Shown here piece by piece: positions 7,582 through 44,687 of a stretch of 54,748 nucleotides of DNA. The stretch spans positions 1 to 54,748 of the IMG/VR virus record IMGVR_UViG_3300044798_000072. One strand, given 5' to 3'. This stretch comes from a virus (taxonomy: Duplodnaviria; Caudoviricetes). Below the pieces are notes generated by a model, which searched no databases, was not told the origin of the DNA, and saw nothing but the letters and a program-made list of their open reading frames with translations. Within the stretch, counting starts at the first letter, position 1; the number at the start of each line of letters is the position of its first letter. Position numbers and translations under genes: made by a program.

Positions 7582-7737
7582 CTATTCAACAATAGGGGGT
7601 TTTATTATCCGCCAAAATATAATTGCGACACTGAAAAGATGAACCGCAAAGAACCCCCGAAGAAATGGAGGTTCTGTTTTATGCCAAGAAATCCCAATTA
7701 GCCAGATTTTCCAGTCGAAGATTATTTCAGGTTTCAT
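7582..7737 (-). CDS. Small hydrophobic hypothetical protein (51 aa)
   Basis: Manually translated MKPEIIFDWKIWLIGISW...PPIVE; start overlaps the groES 3' end. Confidence 0.45.
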   Translation of the reverse strand: MKPEIIFDWKIWLIGISWHKTEPPFLRGFFAVHLFSVAIIFWRIIKPPIVE

Positions 7738-8071
7738 CTAAAATTCCTTCCACGTCATGCTGTTTGATTTGCACCAATCGCTTGTCACCAATCTCGCAAA
7801 ACAGTCCTGAGAACTTTTTGAAAACAACCCGTTGTCCAATCTTGAATTCAGGTTCAACCAGCACGCCTTTCTTGGTTCTCAGTTTTCCGCCCATTGCGAA
7901 CACCGTTCCGGTGCTTGGCATGTCCCGGTCACGGTAAGTTTCGGGCTTCAAAATCAATCCCGATTTTTCAGGTTCGGGGTCGGGAAGGATAAATACATTT
8001 CCGGCAGTTGGCCGAAGCCTAAGACGGCGCTTGAGGCAACTCTGATTTGGCTCGCCAGTTTTCGGGGGCAT
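7727..8071 (-). CDS. groES: Co-chaperonin GroES/Cpn10
   Basis: LRPTAGNVFI...SGLIL...GTVFAMGG...KIGQRVVFKKFSG...DVEGIL. Confidence 0.9.
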   Translation of the reverse strand: MPPKTGEPNQSCLKRRLRLRPTAGNVFILPDPEPEKSGLILKPETYRDRDMPSTGTVFAMGGKLRTKKGVLVEPEFKIGQRVVFKKFSGLFCEIGDKRLVQIKQHDVEGILDET

Positions 8072-8487
8072 TATTTGCCCTCCTTCGACTCACGCTCAGA
8101 GTGCCTCAGCTTTGTTTTAGACCACGGAACTACATCAAACCAATATGAACGAAAAATCAAATTTGCAAACCGACCAGATGCTTCTTGGTGCAACCGCCGG
8201 ATATATGGGATTGAGGAAGTTTGTTCTTGAGTGGTATTCACAGATGACGAGTGAGCCGATGAATCAGGCAGAGCAAAGACTTCGCGGGTATATTGACGCA
8301 GAACTAGAGAGACTATTGAGGGAGTTGGCTGAAAGTGGCTCTCCTGATTATGCCAGAATTTTAGATTTCCGCAAAAAGCAATCACCTTAGATATGAAGTC
8401 CAAAATCCGTGGTCTAACAATGCGCTTCAGGACAACGCCGGGTGCGCTGGCCGGTTTAGCTGCATCACTGGTCGGTTTGGTTGTCAT
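8071..8487 (-). CDS. Antisense ORF starting inside attC loop, coupled to groES
   Basis: ATG in attC loop after AG-rich RBS-like tract; stop overlaps groES start (TAATG); composition not typical of a folded protein. Confidence 0.35.
   Translation of the reverse strand: MTTKPTSDAAKPASAPGVVLKRIVRPRILDFISKVIAFCGNLKFWHNQESHFQPTPSIVSLVLRQYTREVFALPDSSAHSSSVNTTQEQTSSIPYIRRLHQEASGRFANLIFRSYWFDVVPWSKTKLRHSERESKEGK
8145..8390 (+). CDS. Cassette-borne helical hypothetical protein
   Basis: 81-aa protein-like ORF in canonical position just upstream of attC. Confidence 0.6.
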   Translation: MNEKSNLQTDQMLLGATAGYMGLRKFVLEWYSQMTSEPMNQAEQRLRGYIDAELERLLRELAESGSPDYARILDFRKKQSP

Positions 8488-8535
8488 TCGTTTTCCTTTC
8501 TCTCACGGCGCGTGCCTGAGCTTGGGTTGTTAGGT
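8412..8535 (+). repeat. attC site
   Basis: GTCTAAC-aatgc-GCTTCAGG...CCTGAGC-ttgggtt-GTTAGGT (R'', L'', L', R' layout). Confidence 0.85.
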
Positions 8536-30879: not shown

Positions 30880-31350
30880 ATGAAAAGCCAAATAATGCAG
30901 GACGACGTGAAGCGGTTCGCTGCCCGTCAAGAAATTGAACGCGCCGGGGCTTGTGTCGAAACATACAACGATGACGGCATGACGGTTGAACCGGGAAACA
31001 AACGCAAATCAAACCGATACTTTCTCAGAGGTTCCACTCAGAACCTCACAGGTTCTACACAACACCAAGACAGAGGTTCCAAACAGGCACACGAATTTAA
31101 CTCAGTAGAACTTAATTCAAAGAATGGAGAGTCCGCCCCCGTTCTTTTAAGAGCAAAAACGCGGAGCATGGCGGAAATAATTCACTTGGACAAAGAGCGT
31201 GACCGTTTGGAAAAAGAGCGGCAGGACATTCGCAGAAAAGCCGAAACGGGACTGGGCGGATATTCCTACACGGATACGCAACGCGCCCGAATCGTCGAAA
31301 TCAAAGAACGCATCGCAGCCATTGACAAGGCAACACACATTGAATTATGA
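30880..31350 (+). CDS. Hypothetical protein
   Basis: 156-aa ORF, ATGA overlap. Confidence 0.5.
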   Translation: MKSQIMQDDVKRFAARQEIERAGACVETYNDDGMTVEPGNKRKSNRYFLRGSTQNLTGSTQHQDRGSKQAHEFNSVELNSKNGESAPVLLRAKTRSMAEIIHLDKERDRLEKERQDIRRKAETGLGGYSYTDTQRARIVEIKERIAAIDKATHIEL

Positions 31351-33524: not shown

Positions 33525-33614
33525 ATGAACGAACCAAAAACAATCGAAATGGAAATCGTCAGTCAAACCGACGACAAGCTTGTAAAATTCGCAACCAAGA
33601 CGGGACTTGAAAAG
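33525..33614 (+). pseudogene. 5' fragment of phage gene interrupted by IS1595-family element
   Basis: ORF start runs in frame into IS end at 33615; probable 3' remnant LRDMARV...QAQRI ends at 35422. Confidence 0.55.
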
Positions 33615-35312
33615 GGCAATAATATACTTGACTCACATGCGGCAAAAGGTTTAATCTTTCCGAAACCTAAACGAAAGAAAAAACCCGTGACCGTTATAAT
33701 TGGAATAATTTGCGAATTTGGAATCGTGCTGGCAAGCGATAGTCAAACCACGTTTGGAGATAACTCTAAAAGGTGTGATGCTGAAAAAATCCGCGTGGTA
33801 AAATTCAAAGAAAGCGACGACAAAGTATTGGTAGCCCAATCAGGGTCAGTTGAAACATCAAGCCGAGCAATAGACGTAATGGAACAATTGGCGGCTGACC
33901 GAAAATTGGAAAACGAAGAAACGGTTATCAGCACTGTCCAGAAAGCCATGCATAAAGTAAGAACAGAAATACGACATCAAAACTTCGATTGCAGCGCGGA
34001 AGAATTCGACAAAATCATAACCAATCACGGATTGGACTGTTCTTTGATGACGGCGAATTTTTTCGACAAGAAGCCTTTTATTCACACATTTAACTTTCAG
34101 CGCGGAACAACTGAAAACTGCAAAACATTTTACGAATCCACCGGATGCGGCTCTGCGCTGTCCAATTATATTTTAAGCGAATTATGTTCACCAAAAATGG
34201 ATTCTCGGTTGGGACAAGCCATTGCAGTTTATGTCGTAGATAAAGCGATCAAACACGTTGCCTACTGCGATAGGCCAATACGATTGGCGACCATTTATCC
34301 GTGGGAGTCGTCATTCTTTCCTTCACCATCAAATTTGCTTGGCTCTCTACTTGATGAATCTAAATCAACAGCGCCGCGCATATTTTCATCTGCTCCGCCC
34401 TTATTTATGGACAATGTTAAGATAGAAGACGCCGAAGAAGTCGAAAAAATCATAAATAAAGTGACTAAAATTGATGAGGAAACAAAGCCGCAGAGAATTA
34501 AAAAGCTACGCGAAGCATTGATTTCTTACGCTGACACAATGAATGACTATTCCCAAGCAGCCTTAACAAAGAAACAAGCACCAAATGAATAACGAATTTC
34601 CACAAACCCTAGTCGCCGCAATTCGGCATTTCTCTGACCCGCAAGTGGCGTTTGACTTCATGGTGAAACTGCGCTGGCCGGACAAGGTGAAATGCCCGCG
34701 CTGCCAGTGTGAGGACGTGAGTTTCATTGCCACGCGCAAAATCTGGAAATGCAAGCATTGCACAGAGAAAGGCCAGTTCTCCGTTCGCGTCGGCACGATT
34801 ATTGAAGATAGCGCATTGTCATTGGACAAATGGCTTGCCGCGATCTGGATGATTGCCAATGACAAAAACGGCGTTAGCTCCTACGAAGTTCATCGCTCAA
34901 TCGGCGTCACGCAAAAAACCGCTTGGTTCATGCTGCAAAGAATCCGGCTCGCTATGCAAACCGGCACGTTTGAAAAGATGAAGGGGGAAATCGAAGCCGA
35001 CGAAACTTATATCGGCGGCAAAGTTCGCAATATGCACGTTGAACAGAAACGCAAACGCGGTCGCGGGACTGGCGGCGTAGGTAAGGCGATTGTTATGGGA
35101 TTATTGGCGCGGCACAGTAAAGCGGGCACAAGTAAGGTGAAGGTCAAACACGTTCCAAACTCCCGGCGCGGCACGGTTCAAGGCGAAATCCGCGAACACG
35201 TCGAGGCTGGTTCACAGGTGTTCACGGATGCCCTGCCATCTTACAATGGGTTGAATCCTGATTACGTTCACGAAGCAATCAATCACGCCGAATGTTATGT
35301 GCGCGGGAATGT
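33615..35312 (+). mobile_element. IS1595-family element with passenger gene, right end deleted
   Basis: Left end GGCAATAATATACTTGACTCA resembles the TIRs at 48720/49963; transposase truncated; no right TIR found. Confidence 0.8.
33687..34592 (+). CDS. Proteasome beta-subunit-like Ntn hydrolase (Thr protease), IS passenger
   Basis: GTG start gives (M)TVIIGI...GIVLASDSQTT...KI...SG...STGCGS; also in frame with upstream ATG 33525. Confidence 0.8.
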   Translation: MTVIIGIICEFGIVLASDSQTTFGDNSKRCDAEKIRVVKFKESDDKVLVAQSGSVETSSRAIDVMEQLAADRKLENEETVISTVQKAMHKVRTEIRHQNFDCSAEEFDKIITNHGLDCSLMTANFFDKKPFIHTFNFQRGTTENCKTFYESTGCGSALSNYILSELCSPKMDSRLGQAIAVYVVDKAIKHVAYCDRPIRLATIYPWESSFFPSPSNLLGSLLDESKSTAPRIFSSAPPLFMDNVKIEDAEEVEKIINKVTKIDEETKPQRIKKLREALISYADTMNDYSQAALTKKQAPNE

Positions 35313-35379
35313 TGCGCGACATGGCCCGCGTGAAGTTGATGGACGAATCACTGTCAGACTCCATCTGGACAAAAGTTAA
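34585..35379 (+). pseudogene. IS1595-family transposase, C-terminally truncated
   Basis: Zn ribbon CPRC/CKHC, KTAWFMLQRIR, EADETYIGG, VFTD, then breaks after HAECYVRGNV before the HTNxIE catalytic Glu. Confidence 0.9.
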
Positions 35380-36005: not shown

Positions 36006-36368
36006 ATGAAAGCTATCGTTTCTCAAATAATTCTGACCAGTTTCAGCAGCCGTGCTGACGGGAGCATGAGCTTTCGCGGCGTGACCCCGGAGCTTTCCAC
36101 CGTGGAAAAAGTTGCCATGATGGAATTGCAAAACCTTAACTGCCGCGCACTGTTTGAACCATCGGACTTTTCCAGCGACGGCAAAGTTGAAATGAAAAAT
36201 CCGATTGGCACAAAGCCGCCAAGCGTCAGGCTTCGCGGCGTCCTGTTTGTGCTTTTCAAGCAGCTTACGGCCAGAGGAAAGCTGGACGGGAAAAACTTTG
36301 ACACGTTTTACGTCGAGCAAATGGAAACCATAATTCAGTCCTACAAAGACCAACTCGAACCTGAATAA
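36006..36368 (+). CDS. Hypothetical protein
   Basis: SRADGSMS, KPPSVRLRGVL. Confidence 0.65.
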   Translation: MKAIVSQIILTSFSSRADGSMSFRGVTPELSTVEKVAMMELQNLNCRALFEPSDFSSDGKVEMKNPIGTKPPSVRLRGVLFVLFKQLTARGKLDGKNFDTFYVEQMETIIQSYKDQLEPE

Positions 36369-36371
36369 ATT

Positions 36372-37019
36372 ATGAACCGAATTTTCTACGACCTCGAAAC
36401 CGAGGGATTGCCAGAAGCCGACCTTGCCAAGCTCATGCCGGAATTCGCGGCGGGCGCAAACCTGAAAGACCCGGCCAAGATTGTCGCCGCCATCGCTGAC
36501 AAGAAACAGGACTGGCTGGACGGCGCGGCATTGAAAGCCATCACCGGCAAGATTGTGGCAGTGACGATTGCTTGGGACGACACTGAGCCGACAATGTTTG
36601 CCAACGACCCCGACGGCGAAATTGGTTTAATCAAGATTGTTTTGCGTGAACTGAAACGGATGATTTCGGTTGGAGGCATGGCTTACGCTTGGAACGGCCA
36701 CGGCTTTGACCTACCATTTCTTTGTCAGCGGGCGGCGGTTCACAACATCCAAGCCTTTCGTGACCTGACCGTGAATGTCCGGGGCAGGTTCTATTGGCAC
36801 GAATCGCTAATTGACCCAAAACTTGTCTGGTCAAATTACTCACCCGACCATACCGGAACCAGTCTGAAATCTGTTGCGCTTGCATTGGGTGTTGGTGAAA
36901 AAATTGGAAGCGGCAAGGACTTCGCCAAACTGCTCAAGGAAAATCCAGCCGAGGCTACACGCTACGCGCTGGCCGACATTACTTTGATGCGTGGCATAAT
37001 AAACCGAATGGGAATATGA
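36372..37019 (+). CDS. DEDD 3'-5' exonuclease (PolB-exo-like)
   Basis: YDLET, WNGHGFDLPFL, YALAD. Confidence 0.85.
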   Translation: MNRIFYDLETEGLPEADLAKLMPEFAAGANLKDPAKIVAAIADKKQDWLDGAALKAITGKIVAVTIAWDDTEPTMFANDPDGEIGLIKIVLRELKRMISVGGMAYAWNGHGFDLPFLCQRAAVHNIQAFRDLTVNVRGRFYWHESLIDPKLVWSNYSPDHTGTSLKSVALALGVGEKIGSGKDFAKLLKENPAEATRYALADITLMRGIINRMGI

Positions 37020-37112
37020 CCAACAACCGCAACCCGAAGCCGGATTCGACCTGACGCCATAAGCAAACCAAAAACGAATATGAAGAAACATCTTGTCACT
37101 GCAAAACGCGCT

Positions 37113-37180
37113 GTGAAACGACAAGCCGCTGCCGGAACTGGAGTGCGTAGCTCCAGTTCTGTGCAGCGCCCTTGTTAGGC
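37113..37180 (-). repeat. attC-like site 1 (degenerate)
   Basis: AAC...cgctgc-cggaactggag/ctccagttctg-t-gcagcg-ccctt-GTTAGGC. Confidence 0.55.
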
Positions 37181-37201
37181 CACTCGCAACGAAATAAAAA
37201 T

Positions 37202-37459
37202 ATGAACATAACATTCGATAAACTGACGCTCGAAATAAACCGAGAGGAGGCATACGCGCTCTACTCGACAATCAAACATGGTCTTGAGGACAGAATCAAA
37301 GACCACTGGCACAACCATCCAGACTCATACGAGAAACTGGAATCTCAACGACTGCACATGATGCGTGAACTTGCCAGATTCACGGGCAACGACTTTAACT
37401 ATGACTCCGCCGAGCTAAAAAGGCTGCTGACGGAATACCAGAAACCTAAAGTGGCCTAA
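37202..37459 (+). CDS. Cassette 1 hypothetical protein
   Basis: Stop TAA inside GCCTAAC. Confidence 0.7.
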   Translation: MNITFDKLTLEINREEAYALYSTIKHGLEDRIKDHWHNHPDSYEKLESQRLHMMRELARFTGNDFNYDSAELKRLLTEYQKPKVA

Positions 37460-37577
37460 CGCCGCGCTATGCCGCGACTCTGGAAACGAGCGTGGAGCGC
37501 AAAAACCGGAATAAAATTATGAGCAAAACAACGAACGTAAGACGCCAAGAGTCGTTGGCATCAGCAAGAGGTTCTAC
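37454..37577 (-). repeat. attC-like site 2
   Basis: GCCTAAC..gctatgccgcgactct / agagtcgttggcatcagc..GTTCTAC. Confidence 0.8.
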
Positions 37578-37761
37578 AGCTTCGTGCGACCTGCGAAGCC
37601 CACTAGCAAAAGCGCGTGACGCATTTCTGGCGAGCGAGGAAGGCGAGAAGCTGACGAATCCAGGCATACTAAGAAGCCGTGACCTGCGCCAATATCTCGA
37701 AAATCGAATCGAACTCGCCTACCTCGCGGGCGTAGCCGATGCCAAAAAGCTAAAGCTGTAG
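37519..37761 (+). CDS. Cassette 2 hypothetical protein
   Basis: ATG in attC2 loop; stop TAG in GTAGAAC. Confidence 0.7.
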   Translation: MSKTTNVRRQESLASARGSTASCDLRSPLAKARDAFLASEEGEKLTNPGILRSRDLRQYLENRIELAYLAGVADAKKLKL

Positions 37762-37889
37762 AACGACCGACTTGCGCCGCAGCCACGGATAACGGCTGAC
37801 GGCTCCGAAAAGGAAAAAATATGAGAGAAGAAAAAGACCAATCGAAAACTGAAAGCGTAGTGGCTGTTGGCTCGAAGGAGTTGTTAGCG
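37758..37889 (-). repeat. attC-like site 3
   Basis: GTAGAAC..gccgcagccac / gtggctgttggc..GTTAGCG. Confidence 0.75.
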
Positions 37890-38042
37890 ATGGAACAATT
37901 ATACGCGAAGCTCAAACACCGAGAGCACGAACAAAGAGTAAAAGCCGTCGAAGCCGTGAACCGTGCCGAAACATACCAAGACGCTTCAATAGAAGTGGAC
38001 TTCACGATGGACAAAATCAAGAAAATGCTCACAAGCAGCTAA
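37821..38042 (+). CDS. Cassette 3 coiled-coil hypothetical protein
   Basis: ATG in attC3 loop; stop in GCTAAC. Confidence 0.7.
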   Translation: MREEKDQSKTESVVAVGSKELLAMEQLYAKLKHREHEQRVKAVEAVNRAETYQDASIEVDFTMDKIKKMLTSS

Positions 38043-38126
38043 CGCAGAGTTCAGGAACGCCGCACGCAAGGCGTCCGACTCTGAAGGCAGCGTCCAATAG
38101 GCGTTTCCTGCAACGATTTGTTGGGC
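38037..38126 (-). repeat. attC-like site 4
   Basis: AGCTAAC-gcaga-gttcaggaacgcc / ggcgtttcctgcaac-gattt-GTTGGGC. Confidence 0.85.
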
Positions 38127-38148
38127 AGCAAAATTGAGATATACAAAA

Positions 38149-38856
38149 ATGAAAAAGACACTTGGCGAACTTATCGAACCCGGATTTAGCCACTATCGAA
38201 GCATCGGCGAACTGGCGCGCACGCTCCAATTCCTGATGTCCACGGCGCACACATTCCGCGACCCAGGCCGCTGGGGAACTTCCGGCCCGCAAGAATATCT
38301 GTGCGCCTACGGCGGATGCGTGAACTGCGACACCCAGCCGTGGCACAGTGGCCGGATCGTCTCAACAAATCCCCATGTGGTCGAGACAACCACATGGCAG
38401 CAAAACCAAGACAGCATCCGCGACTGCATCCTCGACGCGCTCTGCTCACGCTATCCGGCGGAACTGCGCTGGCGGAAGCGGCACAAAATCAGTCTCGACA
38501 CGCTGCTGAAATTCCCGATGGCTTATCAGAATCAGGACAACGAAAAAAAGGTGTGGGAGCAACCGATGGGGCTTGGACTCGGCGGGACATTCGTGCCATG
38601 CGTCGAACCGATACTATTCTGCCGACGCGGAAACCTGCCCGCAAAACGCCGAATGGATCGCAACTGGTGGGGGTGGCCGCGTGGACGGCACAGCCAAAAA
38701 CCAGAAGCGTTTCAGACGATGGTGGAGTCAGTAAGTCCCGGCCCATACTTGGAAATGTTTGCTCGACGCAAGCGGGAAGGCTGGGCGGCGTGGGGCAATG
38801 AAATAACCAGTGACCTAAAAATGCAGAACATTGGCGCTGAGGCGCGCGACCTATGA
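38149..38856 (+). CDS. Chimeric protein with C-terminal half of an MT-A70 adenine methyltransferase
   Basis: GLG...EPILFCRRG, HSQKPE, YLEMFAR, GWAAWGNE present; catalytic DPPW absent. Confidence 0.7.
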   Translation: MKKTLGELIEPGFSHYRSIGELARTLQFLMSTAHTFRDPGRWGTSGPQEYLCAYGGCVNCDTQPWHSGRIVSTNPHVVETTTWQQNQDSIRDCILDALCSRYPAELRWRKRHKISLDTLLKFPMAYQNQDNEKKVWEQPMGLGLGGTFVPCVEPILFCRRGNLPAKRRMDRNWWGWPRGRHSQKPEAFQTMVESVSPGPYLEMFARRKREGWAAWGNEITSDLKMQNIGAEARDL

Positions 38857-38926
38857 CAACCGCAAACGAAAATGCTCCCGGCAAACCTGAAGGCGTAATC
38901 ACGTCGCCTCCAGCAACTTGTTCGGT
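38823..38926 (-). repeat. attC-like site 5
   Basis: GCAGAAC..gctgaggcg / cgcctccagc-aactt-GTTCGGT. Confidence 0.8.
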
Positions 38927-39101
38927 GGCTTGGTGGATCGTATTGAGGCCACCAGAAAAGTGGGCGCGCGGCGAATTCAGCCACAGTCCGATGCCAATAG
39001 CCGCATTCATAAGTGAACGGATGGCGAAGGAATGGATAGCGTCCGCAGCGCACAGATACCGTGATATAATTCAGCCACCGAATGAGAAAGTTCAGATATG
39101 A
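38853..39101 (+). CDS. Cassette 5 hypothetical protein
   Basis: ATG in attC5, ATGA overlaps at both ends. Confidence 0.65.
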   Translation: MTTANENAPGKPEGVITSPPATCSVAWWIVLRPPEKWARGEFSHSPMPIAAFISERMAKEWIASAAHRYRDIIQPPNEKVQI

Positions 39102-39207
39102 GCGACCAAAATCACAAGCACTTTTATATTTACGGGCGATGCCAATGCGGGCAAGTCCAACCGAACTACAACGCGCAGAGCGAATTATCTGCAACGCCTT
39201 GTTCGGC
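39077..39207 (-). repeat. attC-like site 6
   Basis: ACCGAAT..gttcagata / tatctgcaac-gcctt-GTTCGGC. Confidence 0.7.
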
Positions 39208-39343
39208 GTGGGTGACGGCGATCTGGCGTGAATCGTTTCGTTGTGAACACACCTCGCTATTGGTGTTTTGTAGCTGGTTAACAGCAATGGGAAAGCTGCA
39301 AGCATCGGGCTGGCCTGTGCATTTTGAGGGCCGTGAACAATGA
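39098..39343 (+). CDS. Cassette 6 hypothetical protein
   Basis: ATG in attC6. Confidence 0.5.
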   Translation: MSDQNHKHFYIYGRCQCGQVQPNYNAQSELSATPCSAWVTAIWRESFRCEHTSLLVFCSWLTAMGKLQASGWPVHFEGREQ

Positions 39344-39344
39344 C

Positions 39345-39476
39345 GCCGAACGCCAAGCTCACTGACCGGAGCGCCAAATGACAATTTCGCCACACGCACC
39401 CCGCAACCAGGCACCGCGACCGGCGCTGTCTGAACTGGAAGCGCAAGCTCCGGTTCAGTGCAGCGCCGGGTTAGCC
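39345..39476 (-). repeat. attC-like site 7
   Basis: GCCGAAC-gccaa-gctcactgaccggagc / gctccggttcagtgcagc-gccgg-GTTAGCC. Confidence 0.9.
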
Positions 39477-39704
39477 TGCATTTCGACGGCGATGGTGGCG
39501 AAACATAAAGGCTGCCCGGAGCTAAAACCGTGTAAGCACTGCGGCTACTCGCCGGTGAGGATTGACACGACATTTGCGAACGGCTCGAAAGCCTTCGCCT
39601 TCGGATGCCCGAATGAGGAATGCAACCCGCGAGGCCGGCATTCGGTCTTGATGCCATCGAAGCGGGAAGCAGCAGCCGCATGGAATTACGCCAATGCAGG
39701 CTAA
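39378..39704 (+). CDS. Lar-like restriction alleviation Zn-finger protein
   Basis: LKPCKHCG...CPNEEC...AAAAWN. Confidence 0.7.
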   Translation: MTISPHAPRNQAPRPALSELEAQAPVQCSAGLACISTAMVAKHKGCPELKPCKHCGYSPVRIDTTFANGSKAFAFGCPNEECNPRGRHSVLMPSKREAAAAWNYANAG

Positions 39705-39826
39705 CGATCAAGCTCACGCGCAGCCACTTGTGAGCGAGACAGGAAAATGAAACCAACAACCAAATTACTGCGACGCACGACAAAACCGAGGGGCGAGTGG
39801 CTGTTGCGTGCAGCGCGGTGTTAGAC
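39699..39826 (-). repeat. attC-like site 8
   Basis: GGCTAAC..gctcacgcgcagccac / gtggctgttgcgtgcagc-gcggt-GTTAGAC. Confidence 0.9.
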
Positions 39827-39831
39827 GACCT

Positions 39832-40104
39832 ATGACGAGAGAAATCATAATACAACCAGTGCTCAACGGCTACGTGTGTGTCGTTGGATGTCAGCGCGTC
39901 GCGTTCACTGACAAGCAAACGATGCTGGGGCAACTCAGCGAATACCTCGACAAGCCCGATGAAGTGGAACAACGCTACATCGAACGTGCCGTGAACAAAA
40001 TGCCAGCGGTGCCGCAACCGTGCAGGCCAACCGACTGCTGTGAGTCAAGCGCGCCCACGCCGTCCGTAACGATGGGACGTGTGGAAGAACGCCGGCCACG
40101 ATAA
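39832..40104 (+). CDS. Cassette 8 hypothetical protein
   Basis: MTREIIIQPVLNGYVCVVGCQ... Confidence 0.7.
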   Translation: MTREIIIQPVLNGYVCVVGCQRVAFTDKQTMLGQLSEYLDKPDEVEQRYIERAVNKMPAVPQPCRPTDCCESSAPTPSVTMGRVEERRPR

Positions 40105-40138
40105 CACAAATGACGACCAGGCTCGCAAGGGTCTGGTC

Positions 40139-40430
40139 GTCTAACGACGGAGCTATGCCGCGCCGTCAAACTAAATAAAAATATGGAAAATCCAAAACTT
40201 CTAGCCTGCCCGTTCTGTGGCAGCGAAGTGACGCTCAAAGATACCGGCAATGACGCCGGATACCGATGGCTCGTGCGCTGCGATAATGCGCTCTGCATGG
40301 TCAACCCATTCGCACGGGCAAAAAGCCTAGATGCGACAATGGCAATCTGGAACCAAAGGGCAGGCGGTCGAAAACCAGCGCCGCCCGAAACCGAGACCGT
40401 AAAGGCGTTGGCATCAGCGACTGGTTCTAC
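40139..40430 (-). repeat. attC-like site 9 with ~240-nt coding loop
   Basis: GTCTAAC..gctatgccgcgcc / ggcgttggcatcagc-gactg-GTTCTAC. Confidence 0.75.
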
Positions 40431-40656
40431 CGCTGGCTACGACTGGACTGTGATGTGCGATAAATTGCCACCGCACTGCGTCAGGGTGATGACCTATTCA
40501 CCACAACCAATCGGTGCGCGGCAGAATCTTACGGACGGAGTAGCCATCCTATGCTGGAACGCTCACGAACAACGATGGTGCGATGACAACGGGGAGACAT
40601 CCATGTTCAAACCGACAGCCTGGTGGCCAATAACCATCCCAACTAAAAAGCGGTAG
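40183..40656 (+). CDS. Lar-like Zn finger fused to DUF551-like domain
   Basis: ACPFCG...CDNALC...IWNQR then WTVMCDKLP...PTAWWPI. Confidence 0.75.
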   Translation: MENPKLLACPFCGSEVTLKDTGNDAGYRWLVRCDNALCMVNPFARAKSLDATMAIWNQRAGGRKPAPPETETVKALASATGSTAGYDWTVMCDKLPPHCVRVMTYSPQPIGARQNLTDGVAILCWNAHEQRWCDDNGETSMFKPTAWWPITIPTKKR

Positions 40657-40746
40657 AACACCCAAGCTGAGCGATGACGCCACTACCAACATCCGATTGC
40701 AAACAAGAGCGCCAAGGCGTCATTCGCTCCAGCGCCCTTGTTAGGC
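40653..40746 (-). repeat. attC-like site 10
   Basis: GTAGAAC..gctgagcgatgacgc / gcgtcattcgctccagc..GTTAGGC. Confidence 0.9.
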
Positions 40747-41513
40747 ATCTTGTCCTATTTTCAGGAGGTCTTGTCTCTTGGGCGACAGCAAAGCGCGTGG
40801 TAGCAGCCCACGGCACGGATGGCGTAGTGCTGCTGTTCGCTGACACGATGATGGAAGATGAAGACCTGTATCGCTTCATAGTCCAAGCCGCCGAAAATGT
40901 CGGCGTGCCGCTGACTCGAATCGCGGACGGTCGCAACCCGTGGGAAGTCATGCGCGATGAACGAATCATCGGCGGCGGAATGACTGGCGCTGATCCATGC
41001 AGCAAAATACTGAAACGCCAACTGCTCGACCGATGGACGCGGGAAAACTGCCAGCCGGAAACGGTTTCTCATGTGGGACTCGACTGGACAGAGCATCACC
41101 GGCTAGACCGGATGCGCGTGAGGATGCCGGAACGCAAATGGTCTGCGCCGATGACAGAAGCTCCCTACATGACGAAGCCGCAAATGATGGCGTGGCTGAA
41201 ATCGGAAGGCATCGAACCTCCGAGACTCTACAAAATGGGATTCCCGCACAACAACTGCGGCGGCTTCTGCATCAAAGCCGGTCAAGCTCACTTCGAGCTA
41301 CTGCTGCGGATGATGCCAGACCGCTACGCTTACCACGAACAGAAGGAAGAAGAAATGAGACAGATGCTCGGAAAAGACTATGCCGTGCTGCGCGAACAGC
41401 GCGACGGAAACAAATTCCCGCTCACGCTGCGGAAGCTGCGCGAGCGGATTCAGTCACAAGGCTCATTCGACCAATTCGAGTGGGGCGGCTGTGGCTGCGC
41501 GATAGATGCCTAA
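40674..41513 (+). CDS. PAPS-reductase-like (PP-loop, Cys-cluster) phage protein
   Basis: FSGGLVS, FADTMMEDEDLYRF, CSKILK, HNNCGGFCIKAG, GGCGC. Confidence 0.8.
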   Translation: MTPLPTSDCKQERQGVIRSSALVRHLVLFSGGLVSWATAKRVVAAHGTDGVVLLFADTMMEDEDLYRFIVQAAENVGVPLTRIADGRNPWEVMRDERIIGGGMTGADPCSKILKRQLLDRWTRENCQPETVSHVGLDWTEHHRLDRMRVRMPERKWSAPMTEAPYMTKPQMMAWLKSEGIEPPRLYKMGFPHNNCGGFCIKAGQAHFELLLRMMPDRYAYHEQKEEEMRQMLGKDYAVLREQRDGNKFPLTLRKLRERIQSQGSFDQFEWGGCGCAIDA

Positions 41514-41606
41514 CGTATGAGCCAAGCCACAGCCAACCAGAAACCGTCAACCGCGATAGCGGATGCTGGACGCCCGATGGCTGTTGGCTTCGGCGATTTG
41601 TTCGGC
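41508..41606 (-). repeat. attC-like site 11
   Basis: GCCTAAC..gccaagccacagcca / tggctgttggcttcggc-gattt-GTTCGGC. Confidence 0.85.
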
Positions 41607-41861
41607 ATCGTGCTGTCGGTCCGCGAGTCTGCAATAGTGAAACTTCTCTCGGAGGGCATGACCGTAAAAGAGATCGCCCTCAATCTCAAAATCTCGAATA
41701 AGACCGTCGAGTTCCACTCCCTGCGAGCGCGCCGGAAAATCGGTAATCTATCCATTGCTGTGATGACTCGGTTCGCAATCATAAATGGACTGAGTGAACT
41801 TACGATGCCGAACAGAGAGATAACCAACACAAAATCCGACTCTAAATCCACAAATGCCTAG
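41517..41861 (+). CDS. LuxR-type HTH protein
   Basis: LSVRESAIVKLLSEGMTVKEIALNLKISNKTVEFH. Confidence 0.85.
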   Translation: MSQATANQKPSTAIADAGRPMAVGFGDLFGIVLSVRESAIVKLLSEGMTVKEIALNLKISNKTVEFHSLRARRKIGNLSIAVMTRFAIINGLSELTMPNREITNTKSDSKSTNA

Positions 41862-42138
41862 ACGTTATACAGATAGGGATAGGCAACTTGCAACGCACGC
41901 AAGGGCTAGAATACGAATATCCGCGCCTGATTTCAGCAGCGCGTCTCGTCGGAAAGTTCGTATGCCACGCGGCAGGATCAGGTTCACGCTTACGCTGGAA
42001 GATCACCAGATTGGGGACAAGATGAGATTGGGCCTGTTCGCGCTTCCGTGGCGGGGAAGATTTGTATCAACCGACGGCCAGCAGTTGAGCGCGGTCAAGA
42101 TTATATCAGCGGTCAACACCGTTCTTTGCCATGATTGA
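41854..42138 (+). CDS. Hypothetical protein
   Basis: 94 aa, overlapping starts/stops. Confidence 0.55.
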   Translation: MPRRYTDRDRQLATHARARIRISAPDFSSASRRKVRMPRGRIRFTLTLEDHQIGDKMRLGLFALPWRGRFVSTDGQQLSAVKIISAVNTVLCHD

Positions 42139-42388
42139 GTCCAAGCTAAAATCAGCCGCGCTGGAGTTCAGTCGAAAGTCCGGCATTCGTCCTGCCGTGC
42201 TGGTTCAAGAGGCGATGCAGATTGGGGCGAGCATTGCCCTGGAACACGCCGTCACGAAGGTTAAGAACGAAACCAAGCTGCGCCAGCGGTTGAACCGAAT
42301 TGGACTGCAAGACGGCGGGGAGAAAAGCGGGAGTTTGGTGATTGAGGAATTGGAAAATAAATCGTTGACAAATGGGGCGGTAGGATAG
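42131..42388 (+). CDS. Hypothetical protein
   Basis: 85 aa. Confidence 0.6.
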   Translation: MIESKLKSAALEFSRKSGIRPAVLVQEAMQIGASIALEHAVTKVKNETKLRQRLNRIGLQDGGEKSGSLVIEELENKSLTNGAVG

Positions 42389-42739
42389 AACTTAAAGCAT
42401 CGCATATTTTATGCGGTCAGAGCTTTTGAGATGGCCCTGTGAACGCAGTTGAAAATGAACCTAACGAAATTTCAAGTCCGTTGCTGTTGGCGACCTTGCC
42501 AAAAAGCTGAAAGGCTCTGCGACATCTCAACGCCAACGGCAGCGGTCTTGAGCTTTTGATTTTATGGATAAATCTCTTTTTGGGTTTCGGATTTACACAA
42601 GCGATTCTGGAAATGTTGTGATAACACAGGATACAGGCCGTGAGGAAAACGTTGTTATTTTGAAGCCAGAGCAAATACCATTGCTTGTTTCATGGCTCAA
42701 AGAAGCGGCGTCTGAAATTTACACCCCGGAGGAAAGGCA

Positions 42740-43427: not shown

Positions 43428-44687
43428 ATGGAAACGAAACTACCGCCGCACAGCGCAGATGCAGAGCAGTTCGTCATAGGCTGCTGTCTGACGACGCCGG
43501 TTGAATCCGTTCCTGAATCCATTGGCCGAATTAACAGCGGCCACTTTTACGACCAGCGGAACAGAATCGTTTGGGAAGCGATGGCAACAATGCGGCCTGA
43601 CGAAGTGGACGCCATCACAGTGCGGCAGTATTTGAAGGGCTTTAAAAGTTCTGAAAAGATTGGCGGCGACCAATACCTTGCGCTGTGTCAGGACAAGGTT
43701 ACATCTTCCGCGATGCTCCCAGCCATGCTGGACATCCTCGTTGAGCAAAAGATTCGGCGGGACATCATTGCCACGGCGACAGAGGCGGAAATGGCGGCTT
43801 ACAGTCCCGGCAACGCGCTTGAAATTCTGGACACCATCGAAAGCAAAATCCTAAAAATCAGACCCGCACAGACCGAAGTCGTCGGCATCAAAGAACTGGT
43901 TCACGCCGCTATTGGCCGGATTGAATCCAAATTCCTGAACGGTGACAAAATAACCGGACTGGAAACCGGACTGGTTGACCTTGACCGGCTGACGGATGGA
44001 TTACACCCCTCTGAAATGCTGGTAATCGCCGCGCTGCCAAGCCGGGGCAAGACAGCCCTTGCCGTTAATATCGCAGTCCGGTCTGCGTTGGCCGGCGTCC
44101 CGGCGCTGATTCTTTCCGCAGAAATGCGCCCCGTGCAACTTGTCGTTCGGTCAATCTGTTCTGAATCCCGCGTCAATTTTCACCACGTCAAAGAGTCAGA
44201 CATGCCAGCCATGATGTCCGCTTGCACAAGGCTGTCCAATGCTCCGCTTTACATCGAGCGAGCCAGCGGGTTCACCATAGGACAAGTCAAGGCCATTGCC
44301 CGACGCCATCACCAAAAAAACGGCATCAAACTGATTGTGATTGATTACCAGCAGCGGCTTGTCGGCGAGGGGGACAATCAGGAACAGAAAATCGCGTCCA
44401 TTTCCAAGGGCGTGAAAGATATTGCGATGGAGTTGGACGTGCCGGTGATTCTGCTTTCACAGGTGAACAAGGACGGCGAGACGAAACACGCCCGCGCCAC
44501 AGCCGAGGACTGCGATTCATTATTTAAATTAGAAAATGAGGGGGAACTTAACCCGACGATTCAAACCGTAAAACTGATTGTTGAAAAATCACGCGACGGT
44601 CAAACCGGATACGTCATGCTGGAATTTTTCAAAGAATTTACCCGATTCGAGAATCGTTCGCCGGTTGATGAAAAGGACATTCCATGA
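43428..44687 (+). CDS. dnaB: Replicative DNA helicase
   Basis: PPHSADAE, AALPSRGKT, SAEM, IVIDY, LSQVN, KSRDG. Confidence 0.95.
   Translation: METKLPPHSADAEQFVIGCCLTTPVESVPESIGRINSGHFYDQRNRIVWEAMATMRPDEVDAITVRQYLKGFKSSEKIGGDQYLALCQDKVTSSAMLPAMLDILVEQKIRRDIIATATEAEMAAYSPGNALEILDTIESKILKIRPAQTEVVGIKELVHAAIGRIESKFLNGDKITGLETGLVDLDRLTDGLHPSEMLVIAALPSRGKTALAVNIAVRSALAGVPALILSAEMRPVQLVVRSICSESRVNFHHVKESDMPAMMSACTRLSNAPLYIERASGFTIGQVKAIARRHHQKNGIKLIVIDYQQRLVGEGDNQEQKIASISKGVKDIAMELDVPVILLSQVNKDGETKHARATAEDCDSLFKLENEGELNPTIQTVKLIVEKSRDGQTGYVMLEFFKEFTRFENRSPVDEKDIP

What the first reader, a model, noticed from the sequence alone, without database searches (positions are those of the whole stretch)
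37454..41606. attC sites double as translation-initiation modules and N-terminal coding sequence
Seen: 8 of 11 genes have their ATG inside the attC (37519, 37821, 38853, 39098, 39378, 40183, 40674, 41517). Unrelated proteins therefore share arm-encoded leaders (LASARGS, LASATGS, VGSKELL, RSSALVR, VQCSAGL, VGFGDLFG). Six stops sit at the crossover box (TAA in TAAC x4, TAG in GTAGAAC x2), while three ORFs run across it. Inference: each cassette carries its own start and stop, so shuffling keeps the operon translatable; read-through ORFs would get neighbour-dependent C-termini; the hairpin may enforce translational coupling.
Basis: partly seen in the sequence, partly recalled or inferred. Interest (0 to 1): 0.82.

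Follow-up and report, generated by a model that had tools for sequence, protein, structure and literature searches.

The report
Phage integron cassettes starting inside attC
A phage of Verrucomicrobiota bacteria carries a row of about eleven small genes separated by genuine integron recombination sites, and because the genes lie on the unusual strand, each site also supplies the stop of the gene before it and often the start and first 20-37 codons of the gene after it.

Summary
A covariance model built only from attC sites of Verrucomicrobiota chromosomal integrons (next to IntI genes) finds 9 sites on the + strand between 37454 and 41606 (E 1e-11 to 1.6e-4), plus 2 elsewhere on the - strand. 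Seven long ORFs start inside these sites. An eighth starts inside a probable split site. Six stops sit in the 5' box.

The phage coding strand is the attC bottom strand, so each attC lies 5' of its gene. Host arrays are the opposite way round (171 canonical vs 13; phages 45 vs 5).

For three genes the attC-embedded start is the only usable one. The PAPS-reductase-like gene has lost the ATG that 11 homologues keep. Five others could start just downstream.

In one metagenome, contigs show phage variants lacking three cassettes or one cassette, with junctions in the AAC of the 5' boxes.

The phage has no integrase, so it is a CALIN, a kind already reported in phages. The inverted polarity with embedded starts appears new. 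Translation itself and hairpin-mediated coupling are untested.

The parts
37049..37180 (+). J0: degenerate first attC. The 3' arm is intact and the 5' arm is poor. It holds mini-ORF 37080-37178, which ends at the TAG of the GTTAGGC box.
   Evidence: Model R1 gives E=1.1. A 17-nt identity of its 3' arm with 40730-40746. ORF listed.
37202..37459 (+). Cassette ORF of 85 aa with no family match. Its stop TAA lies in the GCCTAAC box.
37454..37577 (+). attC J1. It holds ATG 37519 in its loop, behind an A-rich leader.
   Evidence: R1 28.6 bits, E 1.6e-4. P(unpaired) around the ATG 0.76.
37519..37761 (+). ORF of 80 aa. There is no in-frame start after the attC. Its stop TAG lies in GTAGAAC.
37758..37888 (+). 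attC J2. It holds ATG 37821. An alternative start, ATG 37890, lies just downstream with AAGGAG 9 nt before it.
   Evidence: R1 E 1.3e-4
37821..38042 (+). ORF of 73 aa. Its stop TAA lies in AGCTAAC.
38037..38126 (+). attC J3 with no internal start. The gene starts 23 nt downstream. The site is conserved at 79% in L003 between different genes, with compensatory changes.
   Evidence: R1 E 1.2e-5
38149..38856 (+). MT-A70-like DNA methyltransferase ORF. It reads across the next 5' box, and its stop overlaps ATG 38853 (ATGA).
38823..38926 (+). attC J4. It holds ATG 38853. The box reads GTTCGGT, in the reading frame where GTTAG would give a TAG stop.
   Evidence: R1 E 1.9e-6
38853..39101 (+). ORF of 82 aa. 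It reads across the next box, and its stop overlaps ATG 39098.
39077..39207 (+). attC J5. It holds ATG 39098. The box reads GTTCGGC.
   Evidence: R1 E 3e-6
39098..39343 (+). ORF of 81 aa. It is followed by the 12-codon mini-ORF 39340-39381, with ATGA overlaps at both ends.
39345..39476 (+). attC J6. It holds ATG 39378.
   Evidence: R1 E 5.4e-7
39378..39704 (+). Lar-like ORF of 108 aa, with the family match at residues 46-103. An alternative ATG lies at 39492. Its stop TAA lies in GGCTAAC.
39699..39826 (+). attC J7. It holds mini-ORF 39748-39823, which ends at the TAG of GTTAGAC. The gene restarts at 39832.
   Evidence: R1 E 4e-11
39832..40104 (+). ORF of 90 aa, 92% identical to a protein encoded in L050. 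The nucleotide homology runs from the 3' box to the next 5' box.
40139..40170 (+). 5' arm of a probable split attC (J8).
   Evidence: Duplex with 40398-40432 is -24.7 kcal/mol against -17.7+-3.3 for shuffles; 13 of 500 shuffles reach it. It is the best partner among all windows in 40171-40700.
40183..40656 (+). ORF of 157 aa. A Lar-like domain (residues 1-67) lies inside the split attC loop, fused through the 3' arm to a second domain. Its stop TAG lies in GTAGAAC.
40398..40430 (+). 3' arm of the split attC (J8b), 84% identical to the 3' arm of J1.
40653..40746 (+). attC J9. It holds ATG 40674.
   Evidence: R1 E 2.7e-8
40674..41513 (+). PAPS-reductase-like ORF of 279 aa. Its native start has been replaced by the end of the attC. 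Its stop TAA lies in GCCTAAC.
41508..41606 (+). attC J10. It holds ATG 41517, 3 nt after the upstream TAA.
   Evidence: R1 60.5 bits, E 1.1e-11
41517..41861 (+). GerE/LuxR-type HTH ORF of 114 aa. An alternative GTG lies at 41610. It reads across the terminal box.
41807..41813 (+). Terminal 5'-type box GCCGAAC, the right edge of the array.
   Evidence: Joint 41511->41811 in run X1. Homology with L003 resumes at 41811.
37458..38826 (.). Block of three cassettes that is present or absent in a natural population.
   Evidence: Run X1: the joint has depth 7.3, the present form 15.9, the flanks 22.3 and 23.0. The shared letters are AAC.
41512..41810 (.). One cassette (J10 plus the HTH gene) that is present or absent in the same population.
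   Evidence: Run X1: the joint has depth 9.65, the present form 11.6, the flanks 23.0 and 23.7.
8412..8535 (-). attC outside the finding. The upstream gene's TAA lies in its box, and the 138-aa ORF 8071-8487 starts inside it.
   Evidence: R1 E 6.9e-7
8017..8122 (-). attC outside the finding. ORF 7727-8071 starts inside it.
   Evidence: R1 E 1.1e-10

Best explanation
The region is a cluster of genuine integron attC sites without an integrase (a CALIN), in the early-gene region of a phage whose host is most likely a member of the Verrucomicrobiota. The sites belong to the same homogeneous attC family as the chromosomal integrons of that phylum.

In the phage the genes are written on the attC bottom strand. 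Reading along the mRNA, a junction has these parts in order:
- the 5' box RYYYAAC (canonical R'), which usually holds the TAA/TAG of the upstream gene;
- a 5' arm;
- a variable loop or arm that holds an ATG;
- a 3' arm with bulged bases (canonical L''), ending in GTTRRRY (R'').

The 3' arm is translated as residues ~10-37 of the downstream protein, in whichever frame the gene uses.

Recombination at the AAC of the 5' box, presumably by the host integron integrase, moves units of the form attC + ORF + stop. Each mobile unit therefore keeps a start and a stop of its own, and the polycistronic message stays readable after a gain or loss.

Shown here: site identity, polarity, the position of starts and stops, loss of the native start in one gene, and presence/absence variants with junctions at AAC.

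Inferred: that the host IntI does the cutting, that the embedded ATGs are the starts used for all eight genes, and that close stop-start spacing gives translational coupling.
For: 1. Family identity. Up to 17 hits fall in one 8-kb stretch. By my count of the titles, 85 of the 120 carry Verrucomicrobiota-lineage names.

2. Link to IntI. 4 of 4 genomes with big arrays have an IntI above the TIGR02249 cut-off, against 0 of 14 control genomes. In 3 of the 3 contigs I fetched, the arrays (10, 17 and 11 sites) lie directly 5' of intI on its coding strand.

3. Structure in the host sites. RNAalifold on 52 chromosomal sites predicts 20 pairs, 9 of them with compensatory changes.

4. Model hits in the window. 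The model built from those sites hits the window 11 times at E<=1.6e-4.

5. Structure in phage copies. The same model gives 154 hits in 517 kb of 48 viral sources (47 loci plus the window). In these copies 94.8% of pair cells are paired, against 73.6% in shuffles and 32-45% when partners are slid.

6. Polarity. The literature gives the bottom strand as 5'-RYYYAAC...EHBs near L''...GTTRRRY-3' (PMC5027507, passages). The phage coding strand reads exactly this way, with its bulges in the 3' arm.

7. ORF orientation between neighbouring sites. Bacterial: 171 canonical, 13 phage-like, 119 ambiguous, of 303. Viral: 45 phage-like, 5 canonical, 52 ambiguous, of 102. Window: 6, 0 and 3.

8. Starts inside the upstream site. 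34 of 45 viral phage-like ORFs and 5 of 6 in the window.

9. Frames. All three are used, but the frame that turns GTTAG into a TAG stop is rare (4 of 45 viral pass-through ORFs). It occurs only with a mutated box, as do the 3 such cases in the window.

10. Lost native start. Of 11 homologues of the PAPS-reductase-like gene outside attC arrays, 10 start 0-5 codons before the conserved K/R-H and one starts 13 codons before. The window copy has no start there.

11. Crossovers. L019 differs from L018 by one attC+methyltransferase unit bounded by GCCTAAC. Run X1 shows joints 37457->38827 and 41511->41811, with depths that add up to the flank depth.
Against: - No tyrosine or serine recombinase is encoded in the window, nor in 4 of 5 related phage records, two of them complete. 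The recombinase is therefore assumed, not seen.
- Three comparisons share the gene body only: window/L003, window/L050 and L038/L042. Homology starts at the 3' box and ends at the next 5' box. A single bottom-strand crossover point does not predict this. It needs top-strand events or homologous recombination in the conserved arms.
- Five of the 8 genes have an alternative in-frame start 0-6 codons after the site, one of them with an SD-like AAGGAG.
- There are no RNA or protein data.
- The joints rest on one contig each with a shorter side of 27 letters, were laid at 88% likeness, and come from a run that may be the source sample.
- The orientation counts leave about half of the segments ambiguous and rest on ORF length alone.
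- Alignment A3 is fitted to the model.
- No phage cassette protein matched a cassette in the 906 kb of bacterial loci held. Actual exchange with host arrays is not shown.
Confidence: 0.72

Rival explanations
1. The sites are mainly short conserved linker sequences at which general homologous recombination between co-infecting phages swaps gene modules. On this view their attC ancestry is incidental and no integron integrase acts on the phage.
For: Gene-only modules bounded by the 3' box on the left and the next 5' box on the right are seen in 3 comparisons. L017 and L019 share only a 117-nt site at 96% identity, between unrelated genes. The arms are long and similar enough (about 20-25 nt) to serve as microhomology. 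L019 holds ORFs (504-1235 and 1277-1936) that I read by eye as possible recombinase and exonuclease genes, without any family search.
Against: The two population joints share only AAC (3 letters) at the junction, and the L018/L019 indel shares 8 letters. That is too little for homologous exchange, and it is exactly where an integron integrase cuts. Pairing and bulges are kept by compensatory changes in 146 distinct phage copies, which a pure sequence linker does not need.
Confidence: 0.15
2. The sites are relics of cassettes picked up from host integrons. Their overlap with reading frames is a by-product of genome compaction, with no role in translation, and most real starts lie just downstream of the 3' box.
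For: Five of 8 genes have a downstream in-frame start, one of them behind AAGGAG. Homologues outside arrays work without any leader. The leader peptides are read in three frames and are not conserved as protein.
Against: Three genes have no usable downstream start. The PAPS-reductase-like gene has lost its own ATG. Pass-through ORFs are found at 45 of 95 viral sites against 84 of 389 bacterial sites. The stop-creating frame is avoided or the box is mutated. The ATGs in the J1 and J2 loops sit behind the same A-rich leader as starts outside the sites (family D1).
Confidence: 0.1
3. The elements are primarily RNA hairpins that regulate translation or mRNA stability of the early operon, and only resemble attC sites.
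For: Strong predicted hairpins of -27 to -55 kcal/mol enclose the starts. Stop-start spacing is 0-20 nt in 5 junctions. In integrons, translation of upstream cassettes is known to shape expression downstream (PMC11511950, abstract only).
Against: The elements match a model made from sites adjacent to IntI genes, where most ORFs lie on the other strand. The conserved features are therefore not tied to one mRNA sense. Cassette gain and loss happens at the boxes. No Rfam family matches.
Confidence: 0.03

Closest known systems
[quoted passage not shown] 2023, PMC9892861; abstract, section 3.4 and term searches read)
   Same: Both are arrays of attC sites without intI in phages. Methyltransferase cassettes are present in both. 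Those authors showed that IntI1 recombined 5 of 6 tested attC sites from three virulent phages.
   Different: That paper reports 17 CALINs with a minimum of two sites each. My term searches of its main text found no mention of start codons, of ORFs overlapping sites, or of opposite or antisense coding polarity. Here there are 9-11 sites per phage, in the window and in several other viral records, all with genes on the bottom strand and starts embedded in the sites, and the family is shared with host chromosomal integrons. Its supplementary tables could not be read, so its gene orientations are not known to me.
Sedentary chromosomal integrons with homogeneous attC sites (for example the Vibrio cholerae superintegron; recalled, plus the listings)
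   Same: The attC family is highly uniform within a lineage. Arrays are long and lie 5' of intI. The Verrucomicrobiota arrays seen here fit this type.
   Different: The phage array has no intI or attI, and its ORFs lie on the opposite strand relative to attC polarity.
Reverse-oriented cassettes in chromosomal integrons (toxin-antitoxin cassettes with their own promoters; recalled)
   Same: The ORF lies on the attC bottom strand.
   Different: Those are a minority inside canonical arrays and are described as self-expressed units. Here a whole array has this polarity, is read as one phage operon, and places starts inside the sites. In the bacterial loci held, 13 of 303 cassettes have this polarity, and 11 of the 13 also start inside the site.
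Fused gene cassettes and translation signals in class 1 integrons (PMC4670013, search listing only); attC effects on translation of downstream cassettes (Jacquier et al. 2009, recalled)
   Same: Both show an interplay between attC and translation, and ORF fusions across cassette borders.
   Different: Those concern top-strand attCs lying 3' of genes. Here the site is the 5' end of the gene.
PeSL mobile regulatory cassettes of T4-type phages (Arbiol et al. 2010; recalled, not read here)
   Same: In both, repeated stem-loop modules flank small accessory genes of a phage and mark the borders of shuffled units.
   Different: PeSLs are a promoter plus stem-loop and are thought to recombine by homology. 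The present sites are integron attCs with R/L boxes and bulged bases.

Membership tests
Integron attC site | Terminal inverse boxes: 5'-RYYYAAC-3' and 5'-GTTRRRY-3' on the recombining strand | tested here: met
   The 5' boxes are GCCTAAC (x2), GTAGAAC (x2), AGCTAAC, GCAGAAC, ACCGAAT, GCCGAAC and GGCTAAC. The 3' boxes are GTTAGGC, GTTAGAC, GTTAGCC, GTTGGGC, GTTCGGC/T and GTTCTAC. Several depart from the strict R/Y consensus at 1-2 positions. AAC/GTT is kept in 8 of 9 (AAT at 39081-39083).
Integron attC site | Imperfect hairpin with paired L boxes, bulged (extrahelical) bases on one arm, an unpaired central spacer and a variable terminal loop | tested here: met
   The consensus of 52 chromosomal sites has 20 pairs. 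T and C are bulged in the 3' arm and there is an asymmetric internal loop. In phage copies 94.8% of cells are paired, and 16 of 20 pairs show changes on both sides.
Integron attC site | Same family as sites that flank cassettes next to an integron integrase | tested here: met
   The model was built from chromosomal arrays only. Arrays lie 5' of IntI genes that pass the TIGR02249 cut-off in 3 of the 3 contigs fetched and in 4 of 4 genomes. The window is hit at E 1e-11 to 1.6e-4.
Integron attC site | Crossover within the conserved AAC/GTT triplet | tested here: met
   Joints 37457->38827 and 41511->41811 share the letters AAC. The one-cassette indel between L018 and L019 is bounded by GCCTAAC. 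Caveat: each joint rests on one contig with a 27-letter shorter side.
Integron attC site | Recombined by an integron integrase as folded single strand | not testable with these tools
   This needs a conjugation-based attC x attI assay.
Integron attC site | Detected by the standard attC model of IntegronFinder or HattCI | not tested
   Those models are not on hand. Rfam holds no match.
Complete integron | intI gene and attI site beside the array | tested here: not met
   No PF00589 or PF00239 match in six frames of the 97%-complete record. The array is therefore a CALIN, not a complete integron.
Canonical integron cassette | ORF on the top strand with the attC at its 3' end | tested here: not met
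   Window: 6 of 9 inter-site segments have the ORF on the bottom strand, 0 on the top strand, 3 ambiguous. Pfam and PHROG hits all lie on the + strand, which is the bottom strand.

The most novel reading that the evidence does not exclude
Phages of Verrucomicrobiota keep their own pool of strand-inverted integron cassettes. They borrow the host's integron integrase to gain, lose and reorder early and anti-restriction genes such as Lar-like proteins and methyltransferases. Because their ORFs lie on the attC bottom strand, the attC has become a portable 5' translation module carrying the stop for the neighbour, the start codon and an N-terminal leader. The inverted polarity would keep phage cassettes silent if they land in a host integron, and host cassettes silent in a phage. 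Two gene pools would then share one recombination machinery while staying insulated in expression.
Probability: 0.4. Interest if true: 0.85.

Novelty: new variant of a known kind. Interest (0 to 1): 0.7.

Why it matters
Integrons are known as bacterial devices, and their chromosomal arrays have recently been described as stores of anti-phage defence genes (bioRxiv 10.1101/2024.07.02.601686, passages). Here a phage, and dozens of related viral contigs, carry long arrays of the host's own attC family around early genes that include anti-restriction functions. Cassette presence/absence variants are visible in a natural population.

That makes a concrete question testable: do phages use host integron integrases to shuffle counter-defence genes?

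The inverted coding polarity shows how an attC can be co-opted as a start-codon-bearing leader. One enzyme gene has already lost its own ATG to it. This bears on how cassettes stay expressible after shuffling, and on gene calling in such regions, where starts and N-termini will be mis-set if attCs are assumed to be intergenic.

Tried and rejected
- Rfam at gathering thresholds on the whole window gave nothing, and there are no tRNAs.
- blastn of 36300-42400 against deposited phages gave no match.
- PHROGs on ten large ORFs gave no family at 1e-5. The viral nature of the record rests on the IMG/VR/CheckV label and on DnaB, exonuclease and collagen-like hits.
- The ungapped inverted-repeat finder missed most sites.
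- A fixed-width weight matrix mis-registered seeds with variable spacing and missed J0. I replaced it with the covariance model.
- nhmmer with the same alignment found only 5 of the 11 window sites. I used it only for the bacterial orientation counts.
- The search for related loci with the 94-aa protein 41854-42135 found only the contig already held.
- Phage cassette proteins against 906 kb of bacterial loci gave no hit. The only hits between cassette sets were translated attC arms.
- The breakpoint survey of all viral pairs was swamped by a tandem-repeat region in L035/L039 and by undetected sites. Only a handful of junctions were informative.
- The idea that the 5' arm carries stops in all three frames was rejected. 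That holds for only 3% of viral and 10% of bacterial representative sites; two frames (TAA, TGA) are usual in bacterial sites.
- I considered and dropped the following readings of the elements: Chi-like sites, REP/RAYT elements, MITEs, RNase III sites and promoter elements. None fits the match to IntI-linked arrays.
- The X3 joint 40193->40401 (side 26, other metagenome) is too weak to count. X3 and X4 hold only small shares of the stretch, and I draw no habitat claim from them.
- Supplementary tables of PMC9892861 could not be read.
- None listed a paper describing start codons embedded in attC sites of phage arrays or a bottom-strand coding bias in phages. That is the limit of my claim that this is not in print.

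Full report
WHAT THE WINDOW IS

The window is a whole IMG/VR virus record of 54,748 bases, estimated 97% complete, with linear ends. The finding lies in a + strand block of small genes between an exonuclease-like gene (36372-37019) and a DnaB-type helicase (43428-44687). Family searches name few of the eleven genes:
- an MT-A70-like methyltransferase (38149);
- two Lar-like restriction-alleviation domains (39378, 40183);
- a PAPS-reductase-like protein (40674);
- a GerE/LuxR-type HTH protein (41517).

CHECKING THE OBSERVATION

By eye, every junction carries an imperfect palindrome that begins with a ...TAAC/GAAC box and ends with a conserved arm of the type YBCAGCG-NNN-TTGTTRGGC. The arm is read in three different frames in different genes, for example S-V-Q-R-P-C-stop, R-S-S-A-L-V-R and V-Q-C-S-A-G-L. 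The repeat is therefore a nucleic-acid feature and not a protein motif. A crude matrix scan gave 10 hits against 0.78 expected from shuffles, with 7 of the 8 + strand hits lying in 37.8-41.6 kb.

WHERE THE ELEMENTS COME FROM

An exact 17-mer and then a degenerate 20-mer of the arm found 6 and 33 stretches in viral contigs. By my count of the record titles, 85 of the 120 carry names of Verrucomicrobiota lineages. The other 35 carry other or no names, and some of these may be binning or labelling noise.

Four of four genomes with large arrays encode an integron integrase above the curated TIGR02249 cut-off, which none of 14 control genomes reaches. In the three contigs I fetched, arrays of 10, 17 and 11 sites lie immediately 5' of intI and on its coding strand. 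The sites there are very uniform; a 98-nt form recurs. These are ordinary chromosomal integrons with a homogeneous attC family.

STRUCTURE AND MODEL

I aligned 52 non-redundant chromosomal sites. The consensus fold has these parts:
- a 7-bp box helix;
- an asymmetric internal loop;
- a CT/AG step;
- a bulged C;
- a GAGCCA/TGGCTC helix;
- a bulged T;
- a 5-6 bp stem of free sequence, in which 11-22 of 52 sequences carry changes on both sides of a pair.

A covariance model of this alignment, which contains no phage sequence, was run on the window with filters off. It gives nine + strand matches from 37454 to 41606 and two - strand matches at 8017-8122 and 8412-8535, with E values from 1e-11 to 1.6e-4. 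Everything else has E>=0.56. The junction at 37049-37180 is a weak match (E 1.1) with a good 3' arm only.

The junction before 40183 is not matched. Its 5' arm (40139-40170) and a 3' arm 230 nt further on (40398-40430) resemble the two arms of the 37454 site. Their variable stems are complementary to each other, and each is the other's best partner in a sliding duplex scan. The duplex energy is -24.7 kcal/mol against -17.7+-3.3 for shuffles, and 13 of 500 shuffles reach it. I read this as one attC whose loop holds the Lar-like domain, with moderate confidence.

In 47 viral loci plus the window (517 kb) the model finds 154 sites, up to 11 per locus. In the 146 distinct copies, 94.8% of pair cells are paired, against 73.6% in shuffles and 32-45% when partners are slid. 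This alignment is fitted to the model, so the figure leans towards the structure.

Passages of Nivina et al. 2016 (PMC5027507) state three things about the bottom strand: its R' reads 5'-RYYYAAC-3', its R'' reads 5'-GTTRRRY-3', and the extrahelical bases lie near L''. The phage coding strand reads exactly so, with the bulges in the 3' arm. In the bacterial arrays this same orientation points towards intI, as a canonical bottom strand should.

I compared the longest ORF on either strand between neighbouring sites:

| Set | Bottom-strand (phage-like) | Top-strand (canonical) | Ambiguous | Total |
|---|---|---|---|---|
| Bacterial loci | 13 | 171 | 119 | 303 |
| Viral loci, model-defined sites | 45 | 5 | 52 | 102 |
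| Window | 6 | 0 | 3 | 9 |

The phage genes therefore lie on the opposite strand, relative to attC polarity, from the host's cassettes. This puts each attC at the 5' end of a gene instead of its 3' end.

STARTS AND STOPS

Of the phage-like ORFs, 34 of 45 in viral loci and 5 of 6 in the window begin inside the upstream site. Stops fall most often at the TAA of GCCTAAC or the TGA of AGCTGAGCC in the next site.

In the window, seven long ORFs start inside model-defined sites and one starts inside the probable split site. The site at 39699 holds only a 25-codon mini-ORF that ends at the TAG of its own 3' box, with the gene restarting 9 nt later. The weak site at 37049 does the same.

Reading through the 3' box is possible in two frames. 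In the third frame GTTAG gives a TAG stop. Among viral sites with a pass-through ORF the frames count 20, 21 and 4. All four in the stop-creating frame, and the three such cases in the window, have the A of the box replaced. The box constrains the genes and the genes constrain the box, which argues that both functions are under selection.

ARE THE EMBEDDED ATGs REALLY USED?

No expression data exist, but the sequence decides some cases:
- 37519 has no other in-frame start.
- The Lar-like domain of 40183 begins at residue 1.
- For 40674 the next in-frame start lies at codon 42, beyond the PP-loop.

Eleven homologues of the 40674 protein in other viral contigs, none preceded by such a site, carry an in-frame start 0-5 codons (ten of them) or 13 codons (one) before the conserved K/R-H-[IV]-[IV]-x-F-S-G-G. 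In the window and in L003 the codons at that place are the end of the attC (..L-V-R-H..) and no start is left. This gene has lost its own start and depends on the site's ATG. It also shows that the leader is an add-on and not part of the ancestral protein.

The other five genes have an in-frame ATG or GTG 0-6 codons after the site. 37890 is preceded by AAGGAG at 9 nt. Their starts remain open.

In predicted RNA folds the ATGs of 37519, 37821 and the mini-ORF at 39748 sit in the loop behind A-rich leaders, with mean unpaired probability 0.66-0.79. The other five sit in the 5' arm (0.22-0.47), 0-20 nt after the upstream stop, three of them as ATGA overlaps. That fits termination-reinitiation coupling but does not test it.

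EVIDENCE THAT THE SITES RECOMBINE

1. Two nearly identical phage contigs, L018 and L019, differ by one unit made of a site plus a methyltransferase gene. The unit is bounded on both sides by GCCTAAC.

2. Contigs of a peat-metagenome run (X1, which may be the source sample) break exactly at the 5' boxes. One contig joins 37457 to 38827 and skips three cassettes. Its depth is 7.3, the present form has 15.9, and the flanks have 22.3 and 23.0. Another contig joins 41511 to 41811 and skips the last site and most of the HTH gene. Its depth is 9.65, the present form has 11.6, and the flanks have 23.0 and 23.7. In both joints the only shared letters are AAC. The second joint reveals a terminal box, GCCGAAC at 41807-41813. 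Homology with the related contig L003 resumes at 41811, so this is the right edge of the array.

Caveats: each joint rests on one contig with a 27-letter shorter side, laid at 88% likeness. The second run, X2, shows only the full form.

3. Against a simple picture, three comparisons share only the gene body, from the 3' box to the next 5' box, with unrelated site interiors. These are window/L003 at 92% over 790 nt, window/L050, and L038/L042. L017 and L019 share only a site. Crossovers therefore also happen at or near the 3' box, either by rare top-strand events or by homologous recombination in the conserved arms.

WHO CUTS

The window has no tyrosine or serine recombinase in any frame. Of five related phage records with 9-11 sites each, one incomplete record has a generic tyrosine recombinase. 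The two complete ones, which have terminal repeats, have none. The host's integron integrase is the obvious candidate, but that is inference.

COMPARISON WITH WHAT IS KNOWN

Qi et al. 2023 (PMC9892861; abstract, section 3.4 and term searches read) reported integron parts in 21 phages. These included 17 CALINs with at least two sites each and methyltransferase cassettes. They showed that IntI1 recombines 5 of 6 tested attC sites from three virulent phages. attC clusters in phages are therefore a known kind.

My term searches of that paper's main text found nothing on start codons, on ORF overlap with sites, or on opposite or antisense coding polarity. Its supplements could not be read.

Work on translation in integrons concerns top-strand sites 3' of genes. 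For this I saw only the abstract of PMC11511950 and the search listing of PMC4670013, and I recall Jacquier et al. 2009.

Five literature searches listed nothing that describes attC sites serving as the 5' coding end of phage genes.

I therefore rate this as a new variant of a known kind. It is a long phage CALIN of the host's own attC family, with uniformly inverted coding polarity, embedded starts, and visible population-level cassette turnover.

VERDICT

Use of the embedded start is forced for three of the eight genes and open for five. Coupling by the hairpin is untested.

Noticed in passing
window 8017-8122 and 8412-8535 (- strand): Two further attC sites (E 1e-10 and 7e-7) flank a single 138-aa ORF (8071-8487) in the otherwise structural-looking - strand half of the genome. 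They show the same arrangement: the upstream TAA lies in the box and the ORFs start inside the sites.
   Followed up: partly
window 34585-35379: An IS1595-family transposase gene (DDE_Tnp_IS1595 plus zinc ribbon) sits inside the phage early region.
   Followed up: no
window 33525-34592: A 355-aa ORF with a weak proteasome-subunit (PF00227) match, which is unusual in a phage.
   Followed up: no
window 31038-31111, inside ORF 30880-31350: GGTTCTAC, GGTTCCAC and GTAGAAC motifs and a short hairpin resemble the boxes of the 37454-type site. They are read as repeated R/T-G-S-T peptides. The attC model does not match here.
   Followed up: no
window 40196-40426: The Lar-like body plus the 3' arm occurs with zero differences inside contigs of 1198 and 931 nt from two other metagenomes (runs X3 and X4). 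One X3 contig joins 40193 to 40401, as if the loop lacked the Lar insert. That joint has a 26-letter side and is weak.
   Followed up: partly
window 39340-39381, 39748-39823, 37080-37178: Three mini-ORFs of 12-32 codons lie inside or across sites. The first is chained to both neighbours by ATGA overlaps. The other two end at the TAG of the 3' box, ahead of a restart.
   Followed up: partly
L035 about 11500-11830 and L039 about 2820-3220: A region of short tandem repeats gives many staggered alignments between these two viral contigs.
   Followed up: no
bacterial loci, e.g. L101:6686, L053:2864, L183:3486, L110: 13 of 303 cassettes in the host arrays have the phage-like polarity, and 11 of these start inside the site. 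No homology to the phage cassettes held here was found.
   Followed up: partly
window starts 37202, 37519, 38149, 40183: Four starts share an A-rich leader of the type AATAAAAATATG and lack a clear Shine-Dalgarno sequence (repeat family D1).
   Followed up: no
Genome-contig hits L055, L074, L076, L114, L128, L141, L157, L159: Eight stretches with the Verrucomicrobiota-type attC arm are labelled Bifidobacteriaceae in co-assembly MAGs. This may be mislabelling or mis-binning.
   Followed up: no
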